This document shows positions 21,634 through 29,952 of a stretch of DNA of 64,000 bases, in pieces; the stretch's first letter is position 1; every line of letters begins with the position of its first letter. The stretch lies in the NCBI RefSeq assembly GCF_055900595.2, contig NZ_CM148325.1; one strand, given 5' to 3'. The translations under genes were made by a program, and so were the position numbers. A model generated the notes under the pieces. The model was not told where the DNA came from. It saw only the letters and a program-made list of their open reading frames with translations, and did not search any database.

Positions 21634-23061
21634 CTAGCGCGACTGCTGATTATATTCATCATCGCGTTGATAAGCTTCATCATTCGGCTGCTCCGGAACC
21701 GACCGCAGTCGATACTCTTCATCCTGGCTCACCGCTTGTTCAGCCAAATCCGGATTAATCTCGCGTTTAATTTCTACCCCTAAACCGCGAAACGCTTCTG
21801 CTTGCGCCAGCACATTTCCGCGACCTGAAGAGAGTTTTTTCATTGCCTGACGATAGTTGTCCTGTGCTTTGTCCAGACTTTGACCAATCGCGGACATATC
21901 ATCGACAAACAAGCGCATTTTGTCGTACAACTTGCTGGCGCGATCGGCTATTTTCTGGGCGTTACGACTTTGATGCTCATAGCGCCAGAGGTTGGCGATA
22001 GTGCGCAGCGCCACCAGCAGCGTGGTCGGGCTAACCAGCATGATATTGTTTTTCAACGCTTCGGTGATCAGCTCCGGCTGGCGGTCAAGCGCCAGTAAAA
22101 AAGCGGGTTCAACGGGAATAAACATCAGCACGTAATCCAGGGTTCGCAGCCCCGGCAGCTGTTGATAATCTTTGCGTCCCAGCAAACGGATATGGTTACG
22201 CACCGACGCGATATGTTCCTGTAGCGCGCTTTCGCGGGTGTAGTCGTCTTCTGCGTTGAAATAGCGTTCATAGGCGACCAGCGTCATTTTTGCGTCGATC
22301 ACCACAACTTTGCCCTGCGGCAGCCGCACGATGACATCCGGCTGCATCCGCGAGCGGGCGTCATTTTCGATGCTGACCTGGGTTTCATATTCATACCCTT
22401 CACGCAGACCGGAAGCCTCCAGCACACGCGTCAATACTACCTCGCCCCAGTTGCCCTGGGTTTTATTGTCGCCTTTCAGCGCACGCGTCAGGTTGATCGC
22501 TTCCTGGGCCATTTGCGCGTTGAGCTGCTGGAGATTGCGTATTTCGTGAGTCAGGGTATGGCGTTCTTGTGCTTCTTTACCGAAACTGTCCTGAACCTGA
22601 CGACGAAAACCGTCCAGTTGTTCACGTAGTGGCGACAACAGGCTGTTCAGACTCTGACGGTTTTGCTCATCAACCCGGCGATTGCTGTGCTCGAAAATAC
22701 GGTTGGCGAGGTTTTCAAACTGCTCACTGAGGCGCTGTTCGCTGTTGATCATTTGGCGAATTTTATCGTCAGCATGTTGCTGTACGGCCTCCATTCGCGT
22801 GGTGACCTCACGCAGATCCGCCTCCAGCGAGGTGTTAATGCTTTGCAGACTGCGCACTTCATTATTGAGTAACTCGCACTCAGCACGCCAATGTTCGCTT
22901 TGGGTAATTTGTTGTTTTGCCGCACTTAACTCCGCGACCATCTCTTCACGTTCAGCGAATTGCTCGGCTTTTTGCTGCGCATGCTGATAACTGGCAATCA
23001 GCCAGCCAATCGCCACGCTCACCAACGCAATAACTGCGTAAACCATGATTGAGATATCCAC
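21634..23061 (-). CDS. rmuC: DNA recombination protein RmuC
   Basis: Coiled-coil protein with N-terminal TM segment; start placed at the GTG (VDISIMVYAVIALV…) giving 475 aa; the ORF is open up to 23154. Confidence 0.8.
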   Translation of the reverse strand: MDISIMVYAVIALVSVAIGWLIASYQHAQQKAEQFAEREEMVAELSAAKQQITQSEHWRAECELLNNEVRSLQSINTSLEADLREVTTRMEAVQQHADDKIRQMINSEQRLSEQFENLANRIFEHSNRRVDEQNRQSLNSLLSPLREQLDGFRRQVQDSFGKEAQERHTLTHEIRNLQQLNAQMAQEAINLTRALKGDNKTQGNWGEVVLTRVLEASGLREGYEYETQVSIENDARSRMQPDVIVRLPQGKVVVIDAKMTLVAYERYFNAEDDYTRESALQEHIASVRNHIRLLGRKDYQQLPGLRTLDYVLMFIPVEPAFLLALDRQPELITEALKNNIMLVSPTTLLVALRTIANLWRYEHQSRNAQKIADRASKLYDKMRLFVDDMSAIGQSLDKAQDNYRQAMKKLSSGRGNVLAQAEAFRGLGVEIKREINPDLAEQAVSQDEEYRLRSVPEQPNDEAYQRDDEYNQQSR

Positions 23062-23179
23062 AACGCCTCCAGCCTCATTACTTACCCGCACAAAATAGAA
23101 TTGTGCTGTACAAACGTCCAGTTTGAAAGAAGTTTCCTGCGAGGCGCTACGCAAAACGATCCTTAATTTTTATTATTTT

Positions 23180-23215
23180 ATCCCACAATATGAGACGTAG
23201 TTTATATTGTGGGAT
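23180..23215. promoter_or_regulatory. perfect 12-bp inverted repeat (ATCCCACAATAT-N12-ATATTGTGGGAT), candidate operator
   Basis: Arms at 23180-23191 and 23204-23215 are exact reverse complements; located about 60 bp upstream of the IclR-family regulator ATG. Confidence 0.5.
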
Positions 23216-23276
23216 ATATCACCTTTTCCCCACGTCATTATGTGGAACACTTCAGCAATATCATCAGGAGAAACGT

Positions 23277-24044
23277 ATGGCAGATACCTCTTCAACCACC
23301 GCTGGCGCACAAACGTTATTACGCGGGCTGGCGGTTCTTAATGCTGTTTATAACGGCTGCCATGACCTGAAAAGTATCGGCGAGTTCACCGGCACGACCC
23401 GGAGCACAACCCATCGTTTAGTCACCGTTCTGGTGGAACAACGCTACCTGCGCCACGTCCCAACGCAGGGCTACCAACTGGGCGCCAAACTGATCGAATT
23501 CGGTGCCAGAGCACTGGAAAGCACCTCGCTGTACGAAGTTGCGCTGCCCGTTTTGCAGCGTCTGGCCCGTTACACCCTGGACACCGTGCATCTGGGGATC
23601 GTTGAAGGCGGCGAAGTGCTGTATCTGGAGAAGATCAACAGTCAGCGTGGGCTGGAAATGCGCTCACGCCCAGGCCATCGCATGCCACTGGCAATCACCG
23701 GCATCGGCAAGGCATTGATCCTCAACCGAACAGAAGAAGAGTGGCGCACGCTGTTTAAGACCTGTGGTGATGAAACAAAACTGGGCACATTTATTCAGAA
23801 CATGCGTCGTTATGCCGCCAGTGGTTTTGCTTTTGATCTGGAAGAGAACGAGCCGACTATCCGTTGCGTTGCAGCGCCGGTTTACAACGCCCGGGATGAA
23901 ATTGTGGCGGCTATTTCTGTCGCCAGTACCACTACGTATATGTCACTGGCGCGTCTGGAAGAACTGGCACCTTACGTCAAATCCTGTGCAGAAGAGATAT
24001 CCGCTGAACTGGGCTGGGGTAAGCACGTCCACAAAAATAAATAA
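23277..24044 (+). CDS. IclR-family transcriptional regulator
   Basis: 255 aa from MADTSSTTAGAQTLLRGLAVLNAV…; N-terminal wHTH and C-terminal effector domain pattern of IclR/KdgR-like regulators; RBS AGGAGA upstream of ATG 23277. Confidence 0.75.
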   Translation: MADTSSTTAGAQTLLRGLAVLNAVYNGCHDLKSIGEFTGTTRSTTHRLVTVLVEQRYLRHVPTQGYQLGAKLIEFGARALESTSLYEVALPVLQRLARYTLDTVHLGIVEGGEVLYLEKINSQRGLEMRSRPGHRMPLAITGIGKALILNRTEEEWRTLFKTCGDETKLGTFIQNMRRYAASGFAFDLEENEPTIRCVAAPVYNARDEIVAAISVASTTTYMSLARLEELAPYVKSCAEEISAELGWGKHVHKNK

Positions 24045-24067
24045 ACCATGACTAAAGGAAACGGCTA

Positions 24068-25072
24068 ATGTCGGGAAACACCTCATTTATTGCCCTGGAC
24101 TGGGGAACGTCATCGCTTCGGGCATGGCGTTTTGGCGACTCACCCAATCCACAAGAAAAACGTGAATTCCCGTGGGGGATCATGAAATTACCCTCCCAGG
24201 CAGCAACACGTGAGGACGCTTTCCACGATACGTTTTTACGTGTCTGCGGCGACTGGCTGGCACAATCCCAATGCCCGGTTCTGGCTTGCGGCATGATCGG
24301 CAGTGCGCAAGGGTGGCAACCCGCAGCTTATTTACCTTGCCCGGTCACTCTCGAGGGTCTGGCAAAGCAGTTGACGCCTGTTATCTACCAGCAGCAGACA
24401 ATGCTGCACATCATTCCCGGCGTGATTAAAGAAGGTGAAATGCCCGAAGTGATGCGTGGCGAAGAGACACAAATCTTCGGTGCTATCTCGATGGAACCGG
24501 CCCTGCAAAACGCGATCCGCCAGGGTATGCCTGTGCTGATTGGCTTACCTGGCACACATGCGAAATGGGCGGTAGTTGAAAACAACACCATTACCGATTT
24601 CCGAACCTTTATGACAGGCGAGTTATTTGATGTTTTATCCCGCCATTCGATTCTCGGTGCCACCATGCGTTCGGGAGATGAACCGCACTGGGATGCCTTC
24701 ACCCATGGGCTGAAATCAGCACAAGAGCATCATCAGACCGGATTATTATCGACGCTGTTTTCGACCCGTTCGCGCCTGCTGACCAGTAATCTTACGCCGT
24801 CCTCGCAGGGGGATTACCTTTCAGGATTACTGATAGGCCATGAATTATGCGGTCTGGCATCCAGTTTGCTACGTGATTTACCCGCCACAACACCGATCGC
24901 CTTAATCGGTAGCGCCACTCTGAACAGCCGCTATTCACAAGCATTCAGCCACGTTTTTCCCGACAGACAGCTACACGCCATTCCTAATGCCACTGAACAG
25001 GGGTTATGGCGAATCGCCCACGCTGCCGGGCTACTCTCCACCAACGCCAGGGAATGTACTCATGCCATTTAA
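24068..25072 (+). CDS. 2-dehydro-3-deoxygalactonokinase-like sugar-acid kinase (DgoK family)
   Basis: 334 aa; blocks shared with E. coli DgoK as recalled: IALDWGTSSLRAW, MRGEETQIFGA, PGTHAKWAVV, DFRTFMTGELFDVLSRHSILGA, SGLLIG. Confidence 0.7.
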   Translation: MSGNTSFIALDWGTSSLRAWRFGDSPNPQEKREFPWGIMKLPSQAATREDAFHDTFLRVCGDWLAQSQCPVLACGMIGSAQGWQPAAYLPCPVTLEGLAKQLTPVIYQQQTMLHIIPGVIKEGEMPEVMRGEETQIFGAISMEPALQNAIRQGMPVLIGLPGTHAKWAVVENNTITDFRTFMTGELFDVLSRHSILGATMRSGDEPHWDAFTHGLKSAQEHHQTGLLSTLFSTRSRLLTSNLTPSSQGDYLSGLLIGHELCGLASSLLRDLPATTPIALIGSATLNSRYSQAFSHVFPDRQLHAIPNATEQGLWRIAHAAGLLSTNARECTHAI

Positions 25073-25691
25073 TACGCTTTTGCAAAAAACCGGGTTAGTC
25101 GCCATTTTACGCGGCGTGAAACCGGATGAGATTGTCGCCATCGGTGAAAAGCTGTATGCCGCTGGATTTCGCCTGATTGAGATTCCCATGAACTCGCCGG
25201 AGCCGTTGCAAAGTATCAGTTTACTGCGCGACGCCCTGCCTAAGGACTGCCTGGTCGGAGCCGGAACTGTGCTTTCGGTGGAGCAAGTCGTCGCGGTTAA
25301 AGAGGCTGGAGGCCAGATTATCGTAATGCCGCATTGCGATACTGCGGTGATCCGTCGTGCCCGTGCGCTGGGTATGTATTGTGCGCCTGGCGTCGCTACG
25401 CCCACCGAAGCTTTTGCTGCCATTGAACATGGCGCCAATGCCATCAAGCTGTTCCCGGCTGAACAAATTACGCCTGAAGTCACCAAAGCCTGGCGTGCGG
25501 TTATTCCACAATCCGTTCCGATGTTACCGGTTGGCGGTATCACTCCAGACACAATGGCGCGTTATCTGAGCCACGGCGCAAACGGCTTTGGCCTCGGTTC
25601 TGCGCTATATCGCCCCGGCATGACGCCAGAGCAAGTCTATGAAAATGCAGTACTGTTTATGAACGCATGGAACAATTTAAATAGCAAATAA
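25062..25691 (+). CDS. KDPG/KDPGal-type class I aldolase (DgoA/Eda family)
   Basis: 209 aa from MPFNTLLQKTGLVAILRGVKPDE…; LIEIPMNSP, GAGTVLSVEQV and VGGITPD blocks parallel DgoA; overlaps the kinase stop by 11 bp. Confidence 0.7.
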   Translation: MPFNTLLQKTGLVAILRGVKPDEIVAIGEKLYAAGFRLIEIPMNSPEPLQSISLLRDALPKDCLVGAGTVLSVEQVVAVKEAGGQIIVMPHCDTAVIRRARALGMYCAPGVATPTEAFAAIEHGANAIKLFPAEQITPEVTKAWRAVIPQSVPMLPVGGITPDTMARYLSHGANGFGLGSALYRPGMTPEQVYENAVLFMNAWNNLNSK

Positions 25692-25715
25692 CTGATAAAT
25701 AAGGATATAAAAGCA

Positions 25716-26690
25716 ATGATAAAACATCTTACCTTACCGAAAAAAATGGCTGCAATGGTACTTCTTGCCGGCGCTGCCCTCAGCACTGCGCCTGTGCAGG
25801 CGGCCTCCTGGCCAACCAAACAGATCGAGTTAGTCGTACCCTACGCGGCCGGAGGCGGTACGGATCTGGTTGCCCGTGCCTTTGCTGATGCCGCCAAAAA
25901 CCATTTGCCCGTCAGCATCGGGGTTATCAATAAACCTGGCGGTGGCGGCGCTATCGGCCTGAGTGAAATCGCCGCTGCCCGCCCTAACGGTTACAAAATG
26001 GGTTTAGGCACGGTTGAACTGACCACCCTTCCCAGTCTCGGAATGGTGCGTTTTAAAACCAGCGACTTTAAACCCATTGCCCGTCTGAATGCGGATCCGG
26101 CTGCTATCACCGTCCGTGCCGATGCACCGTGGAATAGCTATGAAGAATTTATGACTTACGCCAAAGCGAATCCCGGAAAAGTACGCATTGGTAACTCAGG
26201 CACCGGAGCAATCTGGCATCTGGCGGCAGCTGCACTGGAAGACAAAACGGGCGTGAAGTTTTCTCATGTCCCATATGACGGCGCAGCCCCTGCCATTACA
26301 GGCCTGTTAGGCGGGCATATTGAAGCGGTTTCCGTAAGCCCAGGTGAAGTTATCAATCATGTGAAAGGCGGCAAGCTGAAGACACTGGTAGTGATGGCGG
26401 ATGAACATATGAAAACCATGCCTGACGTACCGACGTTAAAAGAGAAAGGCGTTGATCTCTCCATCGGCACCTGGCGCGGCCTGATTGTGTCGCAAAAAAC
26501 GCCGCAGGATGTGGTGGATGTTCTGGCAAAGGCAGCAAAAGAGACGGCTGAAGAGCCTGCATTCCAGGATGCGCTGCAAAAGTTGAATCTCAACTATGCA
26601 TGGCTTGATGGTGCCAGCTTCCAGACCCAAATCAACGAGCAGGAAAAGTACTTTGACGAGCTGCTGACTCGCCTGGGCCTGAAAAAATAA
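25716..26690 (+). CDS. tripartite tricarboxylate transporter (TTT) periplasmic substrate-binding protein, TctC/Bug family
   Basis: 324 aa; signal peptide MIKHLTLPKKMAAMVLLAGAALSTAPVQA; family assignment from overall sequence character and the adjacent TctB/TctA-like genes. Confidence 0.7.
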   Translation: MIKHLTLPKKMAAMVLLAGAALSTAPVQAASWPTKQIELVVPYAAGGGTDLVARAFADAAKNHLPVSIGVINKPGGGGAIGLSEIAAARPNGYKMGLGTVELTTLPSLGMVRFKTSDFKPIARLNADPAAITVRADAPWNSYEEFMTYAKANPGKVRIGNSGTGAIWHLAAAALEDKTGVKFSHVPYDGAAPAITGLLGGHIEAVSVSPGEVINHVKGGKLKTLVVMADEHMKTMPDVPTLKEKGVDLSIGTWRGLIVSQKTPQDVVDVLAKAAKETAEEPAFQDALQKLNLNYAWLDGASFQTQINEQEKYFDELLTRLGLKK

Positions 26691-26706
26691 TCCCGAGGTA
26701 CGGTCG

Positions 26707-27213
26707 ATGAACACAAAACAGTCTGTTGCTCAACTCGCCGTACCGCACCGCAAGCGCCTTTCATCCACTGTGGTGGTGGCGCTGTTACTTTGTGTGGTTG
26801 CTGGCGCGGTGATAATTAATGCCGCTGATTTTCCAGCAACTGCCATTGAAACGGATCCCGGTGCAAGTGCCTTCCCTACTTTCTATGCCTGCGCTCTGAT
26901 TGTGCTCGCTGTCTTACTTGTGATACGCGATCTTTTGCTGGCAAAACCAGTCCCTTGCGCCAACGCACAGGAAAAACCGGCATTCAGGAAAACGGCAACA
27001 GGAATTGCGGCAACCGCGTTTTATATCGTGGCAATGAGCTACTGCGGTTATCTCATTACTACTCCTGTTTTCCTCATCGTCATTATGGCATTGATGGGCT
27101 ACAGGCGATGGGTACTCACACCGGGTATTGCGCTGCTGTTAACGGCAATCCTCTGGTTGCTGTTTGTCGAAGCGTTACAGGTGCCATTGCCTGTCGGCAC
27201 ATTTTTCGAATAA
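26707..27213 (+). CDS. TTT small membrane subunit (TctB-like)
   Basis: 168-aa hydrophobic four-TM-type protein between the TctC-like and TctA-like genes. Confidence 0.6.
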   Translation: MNTKQSVAQLAVPHRKRLSSTVVVALLLCVVAGAVIINAADFPATAIETDPGASAFPTFYACALIVLAVLLVIRDLLLAKPVPCANAQEKPAFRKTATGIAATAFYIVAMSYCGYLITTPVFLIVIMALMGYRRWVLTPGIALLLTAILWLLFVEALQVPLPVGTFFE

Positions 27214-27225
27214 CAGGGGCCTGCA

Positions 27226-28716
27226 ATGTTTGAAAGTGAACTTTTAACTCAGGGGTTTTCGACATTACTCAGTAATCCTCAGGCGCTGCTGTTTGCCACG
27301 TTTGGAGTGATGCTGGGTATTATGATTGGCGCTCTGCCTGGCCTGACAGCGACCATGGGTGTGGCGATTTTGCTGCCTTTCACCTACGGCATGGAGCCTG
27401 TTTCTGGCTTGTTGATGATTTGCGGTGTCTTTTTTGGTGGTGTGTATGGTGGTTCTATCACCGCAATTTTGCTCAAAATTCCCGGTACGCCTGCCGCCGC
27501 TGCCACCGCCATTGACGGATATGAGCTGACGAAGCAGGGAAAAGCCGGGCTGGCGTTAAGTGCCGCCACGTTCTCTTCTTTTAGCGGTGGAACGCTCAGC
27601 ATTATCGTATTGATGTTTCTCTCTCCGGTACTTGCCAGTTGGGCGTTGAAATTTAGTGCCTCGGAGTCCTTCGCCCTGGCAACCTTCGGACTGAGCATTA
27701 TTGCCAGTATTTCCGGTGAGTCACTGATTAAAGGGCTGATTGCCGGGGTTGGCGGATTGCTTATCGCAACGATAGGCCTTGATCCAATGGGCGGTTTTCC
27801 ACGCTTTACAGGTGGATTTGTGGAGCTGATGAATGTGCCATTTATCCCGGTGATGATTGGTTTATTTGCTGCTTCAGAAGCATTCCGCTCTATGGAGCAA
27901 AACCAGCAAATTCGTCAGGGGGCGAAGGTGGCTATCGGCAGTCTGTTACTGCCCTGGCAAACACTACGCCGCATCGCATTAACCATTTTGCGCTCATCAG
28001 GATTAGGGGTTTTTATCGGCATGATCCCCGGTGCGGGGGCAGATATTGCAGCTTTTGTTGCCTATAACGAAACTCGTCGTTTCAGTAAGACGCCTGAAAA
28101 CTTTGGTAAGGGTGAGATTAAGGCGGTGGCCTCCTGTGAGGCAGGCGCGAATGGCTGCACCGGTGGCGCATTGTTACCTATGCTGACGTTGGGGATCCCA
28201 GGCGATGCGGTAACTGCCATCATGCTGGGCGCGTTAACGTTACAAGGGATGCAGCCAGGCCCACTTATGTTTACCGACCACGGCGATATGGTTTATACGC
28301 TGTTTGTCGGCATGATCTTTTGTTACTTCATGCTGCTAGTTCTTGGACTGCTCTCTTTGAAAGTCATCGGTAACGTGGTGAAGATCCCCGGCAATATTCT
28401 CACGCCGATGATCCTCGCACTTTGTGTGGTCGGGACTTATGCGCTGAACAATAGCCTGTTTGATGTTGGCATTATGCTGATTGCAGGCGTGGTGGGCTAT
28501 TTCATGCAAAAAGGGGGGTATCCGGCATCACCCGTAGTGCTGGCATTGATTATGGGGCCAATGGCGGAAAGTAATTTTCGCCGTGCGCTGTCGCTTTCTG
28601 GTGGGTCACTCGACTTTCTGTATACCCGACCGATAACCCTGGCATTGCTGACACTGGCAGCCTTTACGCTACTGACGCCAATAATACGCAAAATTATGCG
28701 CTTACGGCGTCAGTAA
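27226..28716 (+). CDS. TTT large permease subunit (TctA-like)
   Basis: 496-aa polytopic membrane protein; glycine-rich blocks typical of TctA. Confidence 0.7.
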   Translation: MFESELLTQGFSTLLSNPQALLFATFGVMLGIMIGALPGLTATMGVAILLPFTYGMEPVSGLLMICGVFFGGVYGGSITAILLKIPGTPAAAATAIDGYELTKQGKAGLALSAATFSSFSGGTLSIIVLMFLSPVLASWALKFSASESFALATFGLSIIASISGESLIKGLIAGVGGLLIATIGLDPMGGFPRFTGGFVELMNVPFIPVMIGLFAASEAFRSMEQNQQIRQGAKVAIGSLLLPWQTLRRIALTILRSSGLGVFIGMIPGAGADIAAFVAYNETRRFSKTPENFGKGEIKAVASCEAGANGCTGGALLPMLTLGIPGDAVTAIMLGALTLQGMQPGPLMFTDHGDMVYTLFVGMIFCYFMLLVLGLLSLKVIGNVVKIPGNILTPMILALCVVGTYALNNSLFDVGIMLIAGVVGYFMQKGGYPASPVVLALIMGPMAESNFRRALSLSGGSLDFLYTRPITLALLTLAAFTLLTPIIRKIMRLRRQ

Positions 28717-28770
28717 TTGATATCGCTCCCCGACGTTGGGGAGTATGAGACTGATGACAAACGCTAAATT

Positions 28771-28868
28771 GCCTGATGCGCTGCGCTTATCAGGCCTACC
28801 ACAGAAATGCAATATATTGAATTTGCATGCTTTTGTAGGCCGGATAAGGCGATCACGCCGCATCCGGC
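28771..28868. repeat. REP palindromic unit pair
   Basis: GCCTGATGCGCTGCGCTTATCAGGCCTAC … GTAGGCCGGATAAGGCGATCACGCCGCATCCGGC. Confidence 0.75.
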
Positions 28869-28895
28869 ATGAACAAAGCACACGTTAACAACAAT

Positions 28896-28930
28896 CGGAA
28901 TGCTCCCCTAAGCCAGGGAGCGTTTTTTAT
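28896..28930 (+). terminator. rho-independent terminator after the transporter operon
   Basis: GCTCCCCtaagccaGGGAGCG followed by TTTTTTATTT. Confidence 0.55.
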
Positions 28931-29691: not shown

Positions 29692-29952
29692 ATACAACTC
29701 CTCTGTGAATCGGTTTAGTCAGAAGAAGCAAAAAGACACTTTACCGAAGGGTTTAACATTTTTTCGTGACACTCATCACCTTGATGCAAATGCGTTGCAT
29801 AAATTTACCCAGCAAAAGTGATGCGAATCACATAAATCACTCTTCATTCTGCATGACTGCATAAAAGATGAGCCGATTCAGGCAATGTGATTTGTTGCAT
29901 GCTGACTATAGTTAACATTGCGCAACATTTTTATAAGGGTACGGAGAATACC

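What the first reader, a model, noticed from the sequence alone, without database searches (positions are those of the whole stretch)
23180..23215. Perfect 12-bp inverted repeat upstream of the IclR-family regulator gene
ATCCCACAATAT (23180-23191) and ATATTGTGGGAT (23204-23215) are exact reverse complements separated by 12 bp, in the rmuC / regulator intergenic region about 60 bp upstream of the regulator ATG. IclR-family proteins bind palindromic operators as dimers or tetramers, so this is a strong candidate auto-regulatory or operon operator.
Basis: seen in the sequence. Interest (0 to 1): 0.5.

Follow-up and report, generated by a model that had tools for sequence, protein, structure and literature searches.

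The report
Operator of an accessory IclR regulator
The inverted repeat is real and is very probably the DNA site where the neighbouring IclR-type regulator binds to control its own six-gene sugar-acid uptake and breakdown operon in some E. coli strains; this is an ordinary kind of switch, not described before for this operon.

Summary
Observation confirmed. There is a perfect 13-nt inverted repeat (23179-23191 / 23204-23216, 12-nt spacer). It is the only one of its kind in the window, and simulated windows contain one about 2.5% of the time.

The window is E. coli. The repeat lies 23 bp inside the left edge of a six-gene accessory island (IclR regulator, dgoK-like, dgoA-like, tctCBA) between rmuC and udp. 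The island is present in 1456 of 5426 complete genomes.

Comparing orthologous loci supports the operator reading and refines it. The conserved unit is two 15-bp boxes of the type TCCCA-N5-TGGGA:
- box 1 at 23181-23195
- a variable 4-bp linker
- box 2 at 23200-23214

The same motif lies in the promoter region next to the regulator or its operon in Klebsiella, Phytobacter, Brenneria, a Citrobacter-type locus, a myxobacterium, Sphingomonas, gammaproteobacterial MAGs and Bifidobacterium. No dinucleotide shuffle (0 of 300) matched it. A second box sits 19-20 bp from the first in 10 of 10 lineages, and the recognition helix RSTTHRL is conserved.

A conserved CRP-like site follows box 2. In Escherichia a 10-bp gap makes it overlap box 2. 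I infer a tetrameric repressor that blocks CRP-dependent transcription until a keto-deoxy sugar acid releases it.

This is a new member of a known kind. Binding has not been tested.

The parts
23179..23191 (.). Left arm of the perfect 13-nt inverted repeat (TATCCCACAATAT)
23204..23216 (.). Right arm of the inverted repeat (ATATTGTGGGATA)
23181..23195 (.). Box 1, TCCCACAATATGAGA. One mismatch to TCCCA-N5-TGGGA. Predicted site for one regulator dimer.
   Evidence: Near-invariant block in six Escherichia sequences, with single changes in AVS0747 and SCPM-O-B-8794 inside the N5. Top-ranked motif across lineages. Orthologous boxes.
23196..23199 (.). Variable 4-bp linker between the boxes (CGTA here; TGGA, TGAA, CTGT, CTGA, CAGA in other Escherichia)
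23200..23214 (.). Box 2, GTTTATATTGTGGGA. Strong outer half TGGGA, degenerate inner half. Predicted site for the second dimer, 19 bp from box 1.
   Evidence: Invariant in Escherichia. The best second-box offset is 19-20 bp in 10 of 10 lineages.
23208..23223 (.). CRP-like site TGTGGGATATATCACC (8 of 10 half-site positions), overlapping box 2 by 7 bp
   Evidence: not significant on its own. Half-sites conserved, N6 variable, and centre 60.5-62.5 bp before the ATG in Escherichia, L029, Phytobacter and Klebsiella.
23243..23251 (+). Inferred extended -10 element (TGG AACACT) of a class II CRP-dependent promoter. Predicted start of transcription near 23257.
   Evidence: Inference from position relative to the CRP-like site. 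A TGn plus A-rich hexamer ending in T sits at the same distance in 7 of 9 enteric sequences. The consensus promoter scan did not call it.
23266..23270 (+). Shine-Dalgarno AGGAG of the regulator gene
   Evidence: read from the sequence
23277..24044 (+). IclR-family regulator gene (255 aa; HTH_IclR plus IclR_C). Recognition helix T-R-S-T-T-H-R-L.
24068..25072 (+). 2-dehydro-3-deoxygalactonokinase-like gene (dgoK-like)
   Evidence: RefSeq annotation; Pfam DGOK in orthologous loci
25062..25691 (+). 2-dehydro-3-deoxy-6-phosphogalactonate aldolase gene (dgoA-like)
   Evidence: NCBIfam NF006600, 322.9 bits against a cutoff of 207
25716..28716 (+). tctC, tctB and tctA: tripartite tricarboxylate-type transporter (binding protein 25716-26690, TctB 26707-27213, TctA 27226-28716)
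   Evidence: RefSeq annotation; Pfam TctC/TctB/TctA in orthologous loci
23156..23157 (.). Left junction of the accessory island. Homology to K-12 and other island-free E. coli stops here.

Best explanation
The inverted repeat is the visible part of the operator of the adjacent IclR-family regulator.

Anatomy. The operator is two 15-bp pseudo-palindromic boxes of the type TCCCA-N5-TGGGA: box 1 at 23181-23195 and box 2 at 23200-23214, with centres 19 bp apart. The long perfect repeat arises because the two strong outer half-sites, plus their AT-rich centres, face each other.

Mechanism (inferred). One regulator dimer binds each box and the two dimers form a tetramer, as in other IclR-family proteins. 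The operator lies just upstream of, and in Escherichia overlaps, a CRP-like site (23208-23223). That site is placed to drive a class II promoter (extended -10 at 23243-23251, start near 23257) for the operon regulator-dgoK-dgoA-tctCBA. The bound regulator would therefore keep CRP and RNA polymerase off the promoter. That would repress both its own gene and the catabolic and transport genes. A pathway intermediate, most likely 2-keto-3-deoxy-galactonate or a close relative, would release it.

Shown here: the repeat, the two conserved boxes, their spacing, and their association with this regulator subfamily.

Inferred: binding itself, tetramer formation, the direction of control (repressor), the role of CRP, the transcription start, and the effector.
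For: 1. The neighbouring protein has IclR_C (1.1e-36) and HTH_IclR (9e-08) domains.

2. Within Escherichia (six sequences), box 1 is near-invariant and box 2 invariant. The 4-bp linker and the 3 bp after box 2 are hypervariable.

3. I enumerated every 5-mer / gap 0-11 / reverse-complement pattern over the regulator-upstream 200 bp of five lineages. TCCCA-N5-TGGGA ranked first, with 5 mismatches in total against 9 for the best unrelated pattern. None of 300 dinucleotide-shuffled sets reached the observed score.

4. In each orthologous locus the best match lies in the promoter region next to the regulator or its operon:
- Klebsiella: TCCCATATATAGGGA
- Phytobacter: TCCCACATATTGGGA
- Brenneria: TCCCTATATGTGGGA
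- Vitiosangium: TCCCATATTGTGGGA
- Sphingomonas: TCTCACTTTATGGGA
- Bifidobacterium: TCCCACATATGGGGA

5. A second box is the best, or tied for best, of 32 offsets tested at 19-20 bp in 10 of 10 lineages. Brenneria has the strong halves on the inside, which fits two dimer sites rather than one long hairpin.

6. The recognition helix (T/K)-R/K-S-T-T/A-H-R-L is conserved in all these orthologues. It differs in K-12 YfaX, which is 31% identical and has no such box upstream.

7. Operator and regulator co-occur as a single copy in exactly the same 1456 E. coli genomes.

8. A CRP-like site with conserved half-sites and a variable N6 lies 60.5-62.5 bp before the ATG in four enteric genera (Escherichia, L029, Phytobacter, Klebsiella). 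A TGn plus -10-like hexamer sits at the class II distance in 7 of 9 enteric sequences. Escherichia has a 10-bp gap that fuses box 2 to the CRP site.

9. Gene gaps of 12-24 bp, or overlaps, after the regulator gene fit one operon.

10. IclR-family proteins bind DNA as dimers or tetramers (preprint 10.1101/2023.07.27.550818, read).
Against: - No binding, expression or transcription-start data exist for this locus. I found no paper on it.
- Box 2 is a poor palindrome: 4 of 10 core positions mismatch. Its support comes from conservation and spacing, not from symmetry.
- The CRP-like match (2 mismatches) is at the chance level in a single sequence: 16 found in the window against 25 expected.
- The consensus promoter scan found no plus-strand sigma-70 promoter.
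- A -10-like hexamer (TATATT, 23203-23208) lies inside box 2 and is conserved at the same box position in other enterics. It offers a different promoter placement.
- Some IclR-family members are activators, and operator centres near -51 and -70 would also suit an activator.
- Burkholderia and Pseudomonas members of the subfamily showed no TCCCA-N5-TGGGA match at 2 mismatches or fewer near the regulator.
- The Citrobacter amalonaticus regulator, which is encoded at the end of the operon, has none directly upstream.
Confidence: 0.78

Rival explanations
1. The site is the regulator's operator, but the regulator works as an activator. Bound upstream of the core promoter, it would recruit RNA polymerase or help CRP when the effector is present, as described for some IclR-family members.
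For: The predicted box centres lie upstream of the core promoter: about -51 and -70 in E. coli, and about -59 and -78 in L029, Klebsiella and Phytobacter (calculated). No good -35 element is present. The family includes activators (preprint read). The best NCBIfam similarity is to BhcR, which I recall is an activator.
Against: In Escherichia, box 2 and the CRP-like site share 7 bp (23208-23214), so both proteins can hardly be bound together. From my own knowledge, the characterised sugar-acid IclR regulators of E. coli (KdgR, YiaJ, XynR) are repressors. The positions depend on an unmapped transcription start.
Confidence: 0.15
2. The repeat acts as a nucleic-acid hairpin: an RNA stem-loop in a leader or antisense transcript, a terminator, or a DNA cruciform. 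It would not be a protein-binding site.
For: The E. coli sequence folds into a strong hairpin: -20.3 kcal/mol on the plus strand (z -6.2) and -16.1 on the minus strand (z -4.0). The C->T variant in the left arm would still allow a G-U pair in plus-strand RNA.
Against: - No run of T follows the stem on either strand, and the terminator scan does not call it.
- Both flanking genes point away from it.
- With the inferred start near 23257 it is not transcribed on the plus strand.
- The long hairpin is not conserved: L029 gives z -1.1 and Phytobacter z +0.3 with a different fold, while the boxes are conserved.
- The A->T change in strain SCPM-O-B-8794 breaks a pair with no compensating change.
- Brenneria has the arms everted.
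- No Rfam family comes near its threshold.
Confidence: 0.04
3. The repeat is a leftover of how the island arrived: a terminal inverted repeat or recombination site of a mobile element, given that it lies 23 bp from the island's left junction.
For: It lies 23 bp inside the left junction. The island is present in only 27% of E. coli genomes.
Against: - There is no second copy of the arm sequence anywhere in the window, including the right end of the island.
- The island carries no transposase or integrase.
- The same motif occurs next to orthologous regulators in unrelated genomic contexts: Vitiosangium, Sphingomonas, Bifidobacterium, Brenneria.
Confidence: 0.02
4. The repeat is a chance palindrome in AT-rich intergenic DNA and has no function.
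For: A 12-nt perfect repeat turns up in 9% of simulated windows and a 13-nt one in 2.5%. The half-site has no other copies in the window.
Against: The arms are conserved against a variable linker within Escherichia. The core motif and its 19-20 bp pairing recur across phyla.
Confidence: 0.02

Closest known systems
BlcR operator of Agrobacterium tumefaciens (IclR family): two inverted repeats a few bases apart, bound by two dimers that form a tetramer. Recalled from my own knowledge, not checked here.
   Same: Two pseudo-palindromic sites about two helical turns apart (here 19-20 bp centre to centre), upstream of the regulated catabolic operon, next to an IclR-family regulator gene.
   Different: A different motif, effector and pathway. 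Binding and tetramer formation are shown for BlcR and only inferred here.
TtgV and IclR operators. TtgV binds its operator as a tetramer; IclR is active as a tetramer (preprint 10.1101/2023.07.27.550818).
   Same: A family-typical extended operator that would be covered by a tetramer, with release by a small-molecule effector.
   Different: TtgV and IclR cover the core promoter. The site here appears to lie upstream of the core promoter and to overlap a CRP-like site. The sequence motifs are unrelated.
PcaU/PobR-type operators: a palindrome plus a third repeat about 10 bp away. Recalled from my own knowledge.
   Same: E. coli has three good half-sites (TCCCA, TGAGA, TGGGA) and one degenerate half-site, so the four halves are used unequally.
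   Different: Those regulators are activators of aromatic-compound catabolism, and their repeat length and spacing differ.
Predicted IclR-family 'GalR' clustered with dgoK and a TTT-family transporter in Salinivirga fredricksonii HL-109 (PMC5507952)
   Same: The same gene combination (IclR regulator, dgoK, TTT transporter) and the same proposed role in galactonate-type sugar-acid use.
   Different: That is an alphaproteobacterium. The passages I read give no operator motif, and I did not test orthology to the E. coli protein.
E. coli K-12 DgoR (GntR family), regulator of dgoRKADT
   Same: A functional analogue: the regulator is the first gene of an operon that also encodes a KDGal kinase and a KDPGal aldolase.
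   Different: A different protein family and operator. The K-12 operon includes a dehydratase and an MFS transporter, whereas the island has neither and carries a TTT transporter instead.
E. coli K-12 YfaX/RhmR (IclR family, rhamnonate operon)
   Same: An IclR-family sugar-acid regulator. More distant homologues of the window's regulator sit beside L-rhamnonate dehydratase genes.
   Different: Only 31% identical, with a different recognition helix and no TCCCA-N5-TGGGA box upstream.

Membership tests
Operator of an IclR-family transcription factor | An adjacent gene encodes a protein with an HTH_IclR DNA-binding domain and an IclR_C effector domain | tested here: met
   Pfam IclR_C 1.1e-36 and HTH_IclR 9e-08
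Operator of an IclR-family transcription factor | Palindromic or pseudo-palindromic site or sites in the promoter region of the regulator gene or its operon | tested here: met
   13-nt perfect inverted repeat, and two 15-bp boxes 62-96 bp before the ATG
Operator of an IclR-family transcription factor | The site co-evolves with the regulator: the same motif lies next to orthologues, and the recognition helix is conserved | tested here: met
   Motif ranks first of all patterns tested and no shuffle (0 of 300) reaches it. Sites in 10 lineages. Helix RSTTHRL conserved.
Operator of an IclR-family transcription factor | Physical binding by the regulator, and release or altered binding with an effector | not testable with these tools
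   Needs EMSA, footprinting or ChIP
Equivalog of a named E. coli IclR-family regulator (KdgR, IclR, AllR, or BhcR of Paracoccus) | Score above the curated NCBIfam cutoff | tested here: not met
   BhcR 140 bits against a cutoff of 350; KdgR 123.5 against 275; IclR 90 against 380; AllR 75 against 406
Class II CRP-dependent promoter | CRP site matching TGTGA-N6-TCACA, centred about 41.5 bp upstream of the transcription start | tested here: inconclusive
   An 8 of 10 match at 23208-23223, at the chance level alone. Half-sites and distance to the ATG are conserved in four enteric genera, with a -10-like element at the expected distance in 7 of 9 enteric sequences. The start is not mapped.
Intrinsic (Rho-independent) terminator | G+C-rich stem followed by a run of T | tested here: not met
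   AT-rich stem and no T-run on either strand. Not called by the scan, which found only a weak site at 23135-23156.
Known structured RNA (Rfam) | Match above a family's gathering score | tested here: not met
   The best matches are 27.4 bits against 88 and 18.7 against 69, with E about 0.45
Terminal inverted repeat of a mobile element | Matching repeat at the other end of the element, and a transposase or integrase gene | tested here: not met
   No other copy in the window. The right end has only a hairpin and REP-like units. No mobility gene is annotated.

The most novel reading that the evidence does not exclude
A whole subfamily of IclR regulators, found from Actinobacteria to Proteobacteria and attached to different keto-deoxy sugar-acid pathways (galactonate type and rhamnonate type), shares one operator design: two TCCCA-N5-TGGGA boxes 19-20 bp apart. 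In Escherichia, a 10-bp gap relative to other enterics has fused this operator to the CRP site. Regulator and CRP would then compete for the same 7 bp, giving a compact 'sugar acid present AND glucose absent' switch for an island carried mainly by extra-intestinal lineages such as ST131.
Probability: 0.35. Interest if true: 0.4.

Novelty: new member of a known kind. Interest (0 to 1): 0.3.

Why it matters
It gives a concrete, testable operator (three strong half-sites, a linker that should tolerate mutation, and an overlapping CRP-like site) for an uncharacterised regulator.

That regulator controls an accessory sugar-acid uptake and catabolism operon carried by about a quarter of complete E. 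coli genomes, including ST131 and APEC strains.

The shared motif also allows regulon prediction for many related regulators in Burkholderiales, Enterobacterales, Bifidobacterium and others, and could supply a sugar-acid-responsive biosensor part.

It does not change what is known about how IclR-family regulators work.

Tried and rejected
- **Further copies of the 12-mer in the window.** Only chance-level 2-mismatch hits turned up. In 1456 E. coli genomes the 61-bp region occurs exactly once per genome.
- **Consensus sigma-70 scan.** It found no plus-strand promoter and only a weak minus-strand match (ATGATA / CATAAT, 23264-23237) at the chance level. I did not use it.
- **A -10 element inside box 2 (TATATT, 23203-23208).** I considered it as the promoter, which would mean classical occlusion. 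I rank it below the CRP class II model, because the conserved CRP-like site would then sit at +1.
- **K-12 YfaX/RhmR as a reference for the motif.** Rejected: 31% identity, a different recognition helix and a different upstream palindrome.
- **Salmonella SL1344_3500 (PMC12445098).** This is a different locus (between glgP and glpD), not this regulator.
- **The 'RhmR' of Rodionova et al. (PMC3870299).** It is a LacI-family protein and unrelated.
- **Literature searches** by gene neighbours and by RefSeq protein accessions found nothing on this island.
- **Burkholderia ubonensis and Pseudomonas loci.** No match at 2 mismatches or fewer. For Pseudomonas the operon's upstream region lay outside the fetched DNA.
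- **Citrobacter amalonaticus L009.** The operon's upstream region was outside the locus. A related locus (L030) supplied it.
- **Strain HS-02.** Its copy is full of small indels, possibly assembly errors, and I ignored it.
- **Azotobacter dgo paper (PMC11256883).** It shows galactose induction of a dgoR-dgoK cluster, but I could not establish that its dgoR belongs to this family, so I did not use it as evidence.

Full report
**1. Observation**

The repeat finder extends them to 13 nt: 23179-23191 and 23204-23216, with 12 nt between the arms.

It is the only perfect inverted repeat of 12 nt or more with a spacer of 40 or less in the 64-kb window. In 200 first-order Markov simulations of the window, such a 13-nt repeat appeared in 2.5% of runs and a 12-nt one in 9%. 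So the repeat is unusual, but on its own it is not overwhelming evidence. The 12-mer has no further good copy in the window.

**2. Context**

The window is Escherichia coli. Homology to K-12 and the other island-free genomes stops at 23156. From 23157 to about 28900 lies an accessory island inserted between rmuC and udp. It contains:
- an IclR-family regulator gene (23277-24044)
- a 2-dehydro-3-deoxygalactonokinase-like gene (24068-25072)
- a 2-dehydro-3-deoxy-6-phosphogalactonate aldolase gene (25062-25691; NCBIfam NF006600, 323 bits against a cutoff of 207)
- the three genes of a tripartite tricarboxylate-type transporter, tctC, tctB and tctA (25716-28716)

The genes are separated by 12-24 bp or overlap, so they probably form one operon headed by the regulator gene.

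The island is present in 1456 of 5426 complete E. coli genomes, including ST131 and APEC O18. The regulator gene and the 61-bp repeat region occur in exactly the same 1456 genomes, once each.

The repeat lies 23 bp inside the left junction. It sits in the 215-bp divergent region between rmuC (GTG start at 23061) and the regulator gene, and ends 61 bp before the ATG.

The regulator has IclR_C and HTH_IclR domains. It does not reach the curated cutoff of any named regulator, including BhcR, KdgR, IclR and AllR.

**3. What is conserved within Escherichia**

I aligned six Escherichia sequences: three E. coli types, strain SCPM-O-B-8794, E. whittamii and Escherichia sp. E1V33. The pattern, read left to right, is:
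- ATCCCACAATATGAGA is conserved, with two single changes in the centre.
- The next four bases (23196-23199) differ in almost every sequence: CGTA, TGGA, TGAA, CTGT, CTGA, CAGA.
- GTTTATATTGTGGGA is invariant.
- The next three bases (23215-23217) vary again.
- ATCACC is invariant.

Its outer four bases on each side are fixed, and only the middle four vary. The last base or two of the right arm are not conserved.

The conserved units are two 15-bp boxes: box 1, TCCCACAATATGAGA (23181-23195), and box 2, GTTTATATTGTGGGA (23200-23214).

The ST131 type carries C->T at 23186, inside the N5 of box 1. The long repeat is therefore imperfect in that lineage, and probably in the other genomes in the same identity band (about 589), while the box half-sites stay intact.

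**4. Comparison across orthologues**

A scan of one genome per species returned 18 loci encoding relatives of the regulator. Protein-based look-ups added seven more.

*Gene context.* The regulator travels with dgoK and dgoA in Klebsiella spallanzanii and K. indica (same position beside rmuC), Phytobacter, an unnamed enteric contig (L029), a Citrobacter-type locus, Brenneria, Burkholderia, Pseudomonas and the myxobacterium Vitiosangium. More distant relatives (45-48% identity) sit beside L-rhamnonate dehydratase genes. These are found in Sphingomonas, gammaproteobacterial MAGs and Bifidobacterium.

*Motif search.* To avoid choosing a motif by eye, I enumerated every pattern made of a 5-mer, a gap of 0-11 and its reverse complement. 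I scored each over the 200 bp upstream of the regulator in five lineages.
- TCCCA-N5-TGGGA ranked first, with 5 mismatches in total.
- The same motif in a shifted register ranked second.
- The best unrelated pattern had 9 mismatches.
- None of 300 dinucleotide-shuffled sets reached the observed score; the best shuffle scored 8 against an observed 6.

*Where the matches lie.* In the loci where a match was found, the best one lies in the promoter region next to the regulator or its operon:
- Klebsiella: TCCCATATATAGGGA
- L029: TCCCACATATAGGGA
- Phytobacter: TCCCACATATTGGGA (perfect)
- Brenneria: TCCCTATATGTGGGA
- Vitiosangium: TCCCATATTGTGGGA (perfect)
- Sphingomonas: TCTCACTTTATGGGA
- Bifidobacterium: TCCCACATATGGGGA, in the divergent region in front of the operon whose last gene is the regulator

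*Second box.* I took the best box in each of ten lineages and asked which of 32 offsets (plus or minus 15-30 bp) gave the best second box. The answer was 19 or 20 bp in all ten, with a tie at another offset in three of them.

Brenneria has the strong half-sites on the inside (…TGTGGGA CGATC TCCCACA…), whereas E. coli has them on the outside. That is what two independent dimer sites would allow, and it is not what a single long hairpin would need.

*Protein side.* The recognition helix (T-R-S-T-T-H-R-L) is conserved in all these proteins. It differs in K-12 YfaX/RhmR, which is 31% identical and has a different palindrome upstream.

**5. The promoter (inferred)**

Directly after box 2, the enteric sequences carry TGTGc-N6-TCACC, a CRP-like site. 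Its half-sites are conserved and its N6 is variable. Its centre lies 60.5-62.5 bp before the ATG in Escherichia, L029, Phytobacter and Klebsiella.

Escherichia has a 10-bp gap here relative to the other genera. As a result, the TGTGG of box 2 itself serves as the left half of the site (TGTGGGATATATCACC, 23208-23223).

On its own this 8 of 10 match is at the chance level: 16 such matches in the window against 25 expected. The argument rests on the conserved position. As a sanity check, the same scan also picks up CRP-like matches in the udp upstream region.

At the distance expected for a class II CRP promoter, 7 of 9 enteric sequences show TGn followed by an A-rich hexamer ending in T. In E. 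coli this is TGG AACACT at 23243-23251. That predicts a start near 23257 and a leader of about 20 nt with AGGAG at 23266-23270.

The consensus promoter scan found no plus-strand promoter. That fits an activator-dependent promoter, but it also means this part is inference.

An alternative -10 (TATATT, 23203-23208) lies inside box 2. If it were the real one, the regulator would occlude the core promoter directly.

**6. Mechanism**

Most likely, one regulator dimer binds each box and the two form a tetramer, as IclR-family proteins do (family behaviour as summarised in the preprint read). The complex would cover about 23178-23217.

In E. coli this overlaps the CRP-like site by 7 bp. A bound regulator should therefore exclude CRP and shut off the operon, including its own gene. 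A pathway intermediate would then release it. The island encodes only a kinase, an aldolase and a transporter, with no dehydratase. That points to a 2-keto-3-deoxy sugar acid such as KDGal as both substrate and effector.

Repression, CRP competition and the effector are all inferences. An activator role remains possible; I put it at about 0.15.

**7. Rivals**

- *RNA or DNA hairpin.* The E. coli sequence folds strongly (-20.3 kcal/mol, z -6.2). But the long hairpin is not conserved in L029 or Phytobacter, no T-run follows it, a change in strain SCPM-O-B-8794 breaks a pair without compensation, and nothing in Rfam matches.
- *Mobile-element end.* There is no second copy and no mobility gene, and the motif occurs in unrelated contexts.
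- *Chance.* Excluded by the conservation results.

**8. Comparison with what is known**

The design works like the operators of IclR-family tetramers (BlcR, TtgV, IclR itself). The locus resembles the IclR plus dgoK plus TTT-transporter cluster predicted in Salinivirga (PMC5507952). I found no publication on this E. coli island or its regulator.

It is a new member of a known kind. Interest is modest: a solid and testable operator prediction, with a small evolutionary twist in the fusion of operator and CRP site in Escherichia.

Noticed in passing
window 23157-28900: A six-gene accessory island (IclR regulator, dgoK-like, dgoA-like, tctCBA) lies between rmuC and udp. It is present in 1456 of 5426 complete E. 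coli genomes, including ST131 and APEC O18. The window's allele is a rare one: only 10-17 genomes are 99% identical or better. Klebsiella spallanzanii and K. indica carry a diverged version with the same left junction after ...ACGCAAA. That suggests either an old insertion with many losses or exchange through the flanking genes.
   Followed up: partly
window 28717-28925: The right end of the island has a hairpin (CTCCCCGACGTTGGGGAG), two REP-like palindromic units, and a udp terminator (GCTCCCCTAAGCCAGGGAGC plus a T-run) that differs from the K-12 one. udp is one codon longer than in K-12.
   Followed up: no
window 23186: ST131 strain 4433 and strain AVS0747 have T instead of C here, as probably do the roughly 589 island-bearing genomes at the same identity level. 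The 'perfect' repeat is therefore lineage-specific. The change lies in the N5 of box 1, not in a half-site.
   Followed up: yes
window 23215-23223, compared with L029 2931-2948: Escherichia has a 10-bp gap relative to other enterics between box 2 and the TCACC half of the CRP-like site. This roughly preserves the helical phase and fuses the two sites.
   Followed up: partly
L030 1311-7765: A Citrobacter-type locus has two IclR-family genes flanking the dgoK-dgoA-tctCBA operon. The two-box site lies upstream of the first one, and there is none upstream of the second.
   Followed up: partly
L015 1535-1571: In Bifidobacterium biavatii the box sits at the centre of a much longer palindrome with 15-nt arms (ATGGAACGCCGTCCC ACATAT GGGGACGGCGTTCCAT). 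It lies between a divergent SDR gene and an L-rhamnonate dehydratase / aldolase / regulator operon.
   Followed up: partly
L010 3938-3952; L013 3921-3935: In the gammaproteobacterial MAGs the second box overlaps the only start codon in frame. In Sphingomonas it overlaps the start codon I judged most plausible. This hints at a leaderless or very short-leader mRNA.
   Followed up: no
L023 10800-10830 (K-12 yfaX upstream): The K-12 rhamnonate regulator gene yfaX has its own perfect palindrome, CACAAATTTGTG, upstream. It may be that regulator's operator.
   Followed up: no
window 23095-23125: The core (non-island) part of the rmuC upstream region, AATAGAATTGTGCTGTACAAACGTCCAGTTT, is nearly identical in Escherichia and Klebsiella. 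It probably holds the rmuC promoter (TGGACG, 17 bp, TATTTT on the minus strand, read by eye).
   Followed up: no
window 29765-29832: Two CRP-like matches lie upstream of udp; 29817-29832 (AGTGATGCGAATCACA) has one mismatch. This agrees with the CRP control of udp that I recall from the literature.
   Followed up: no
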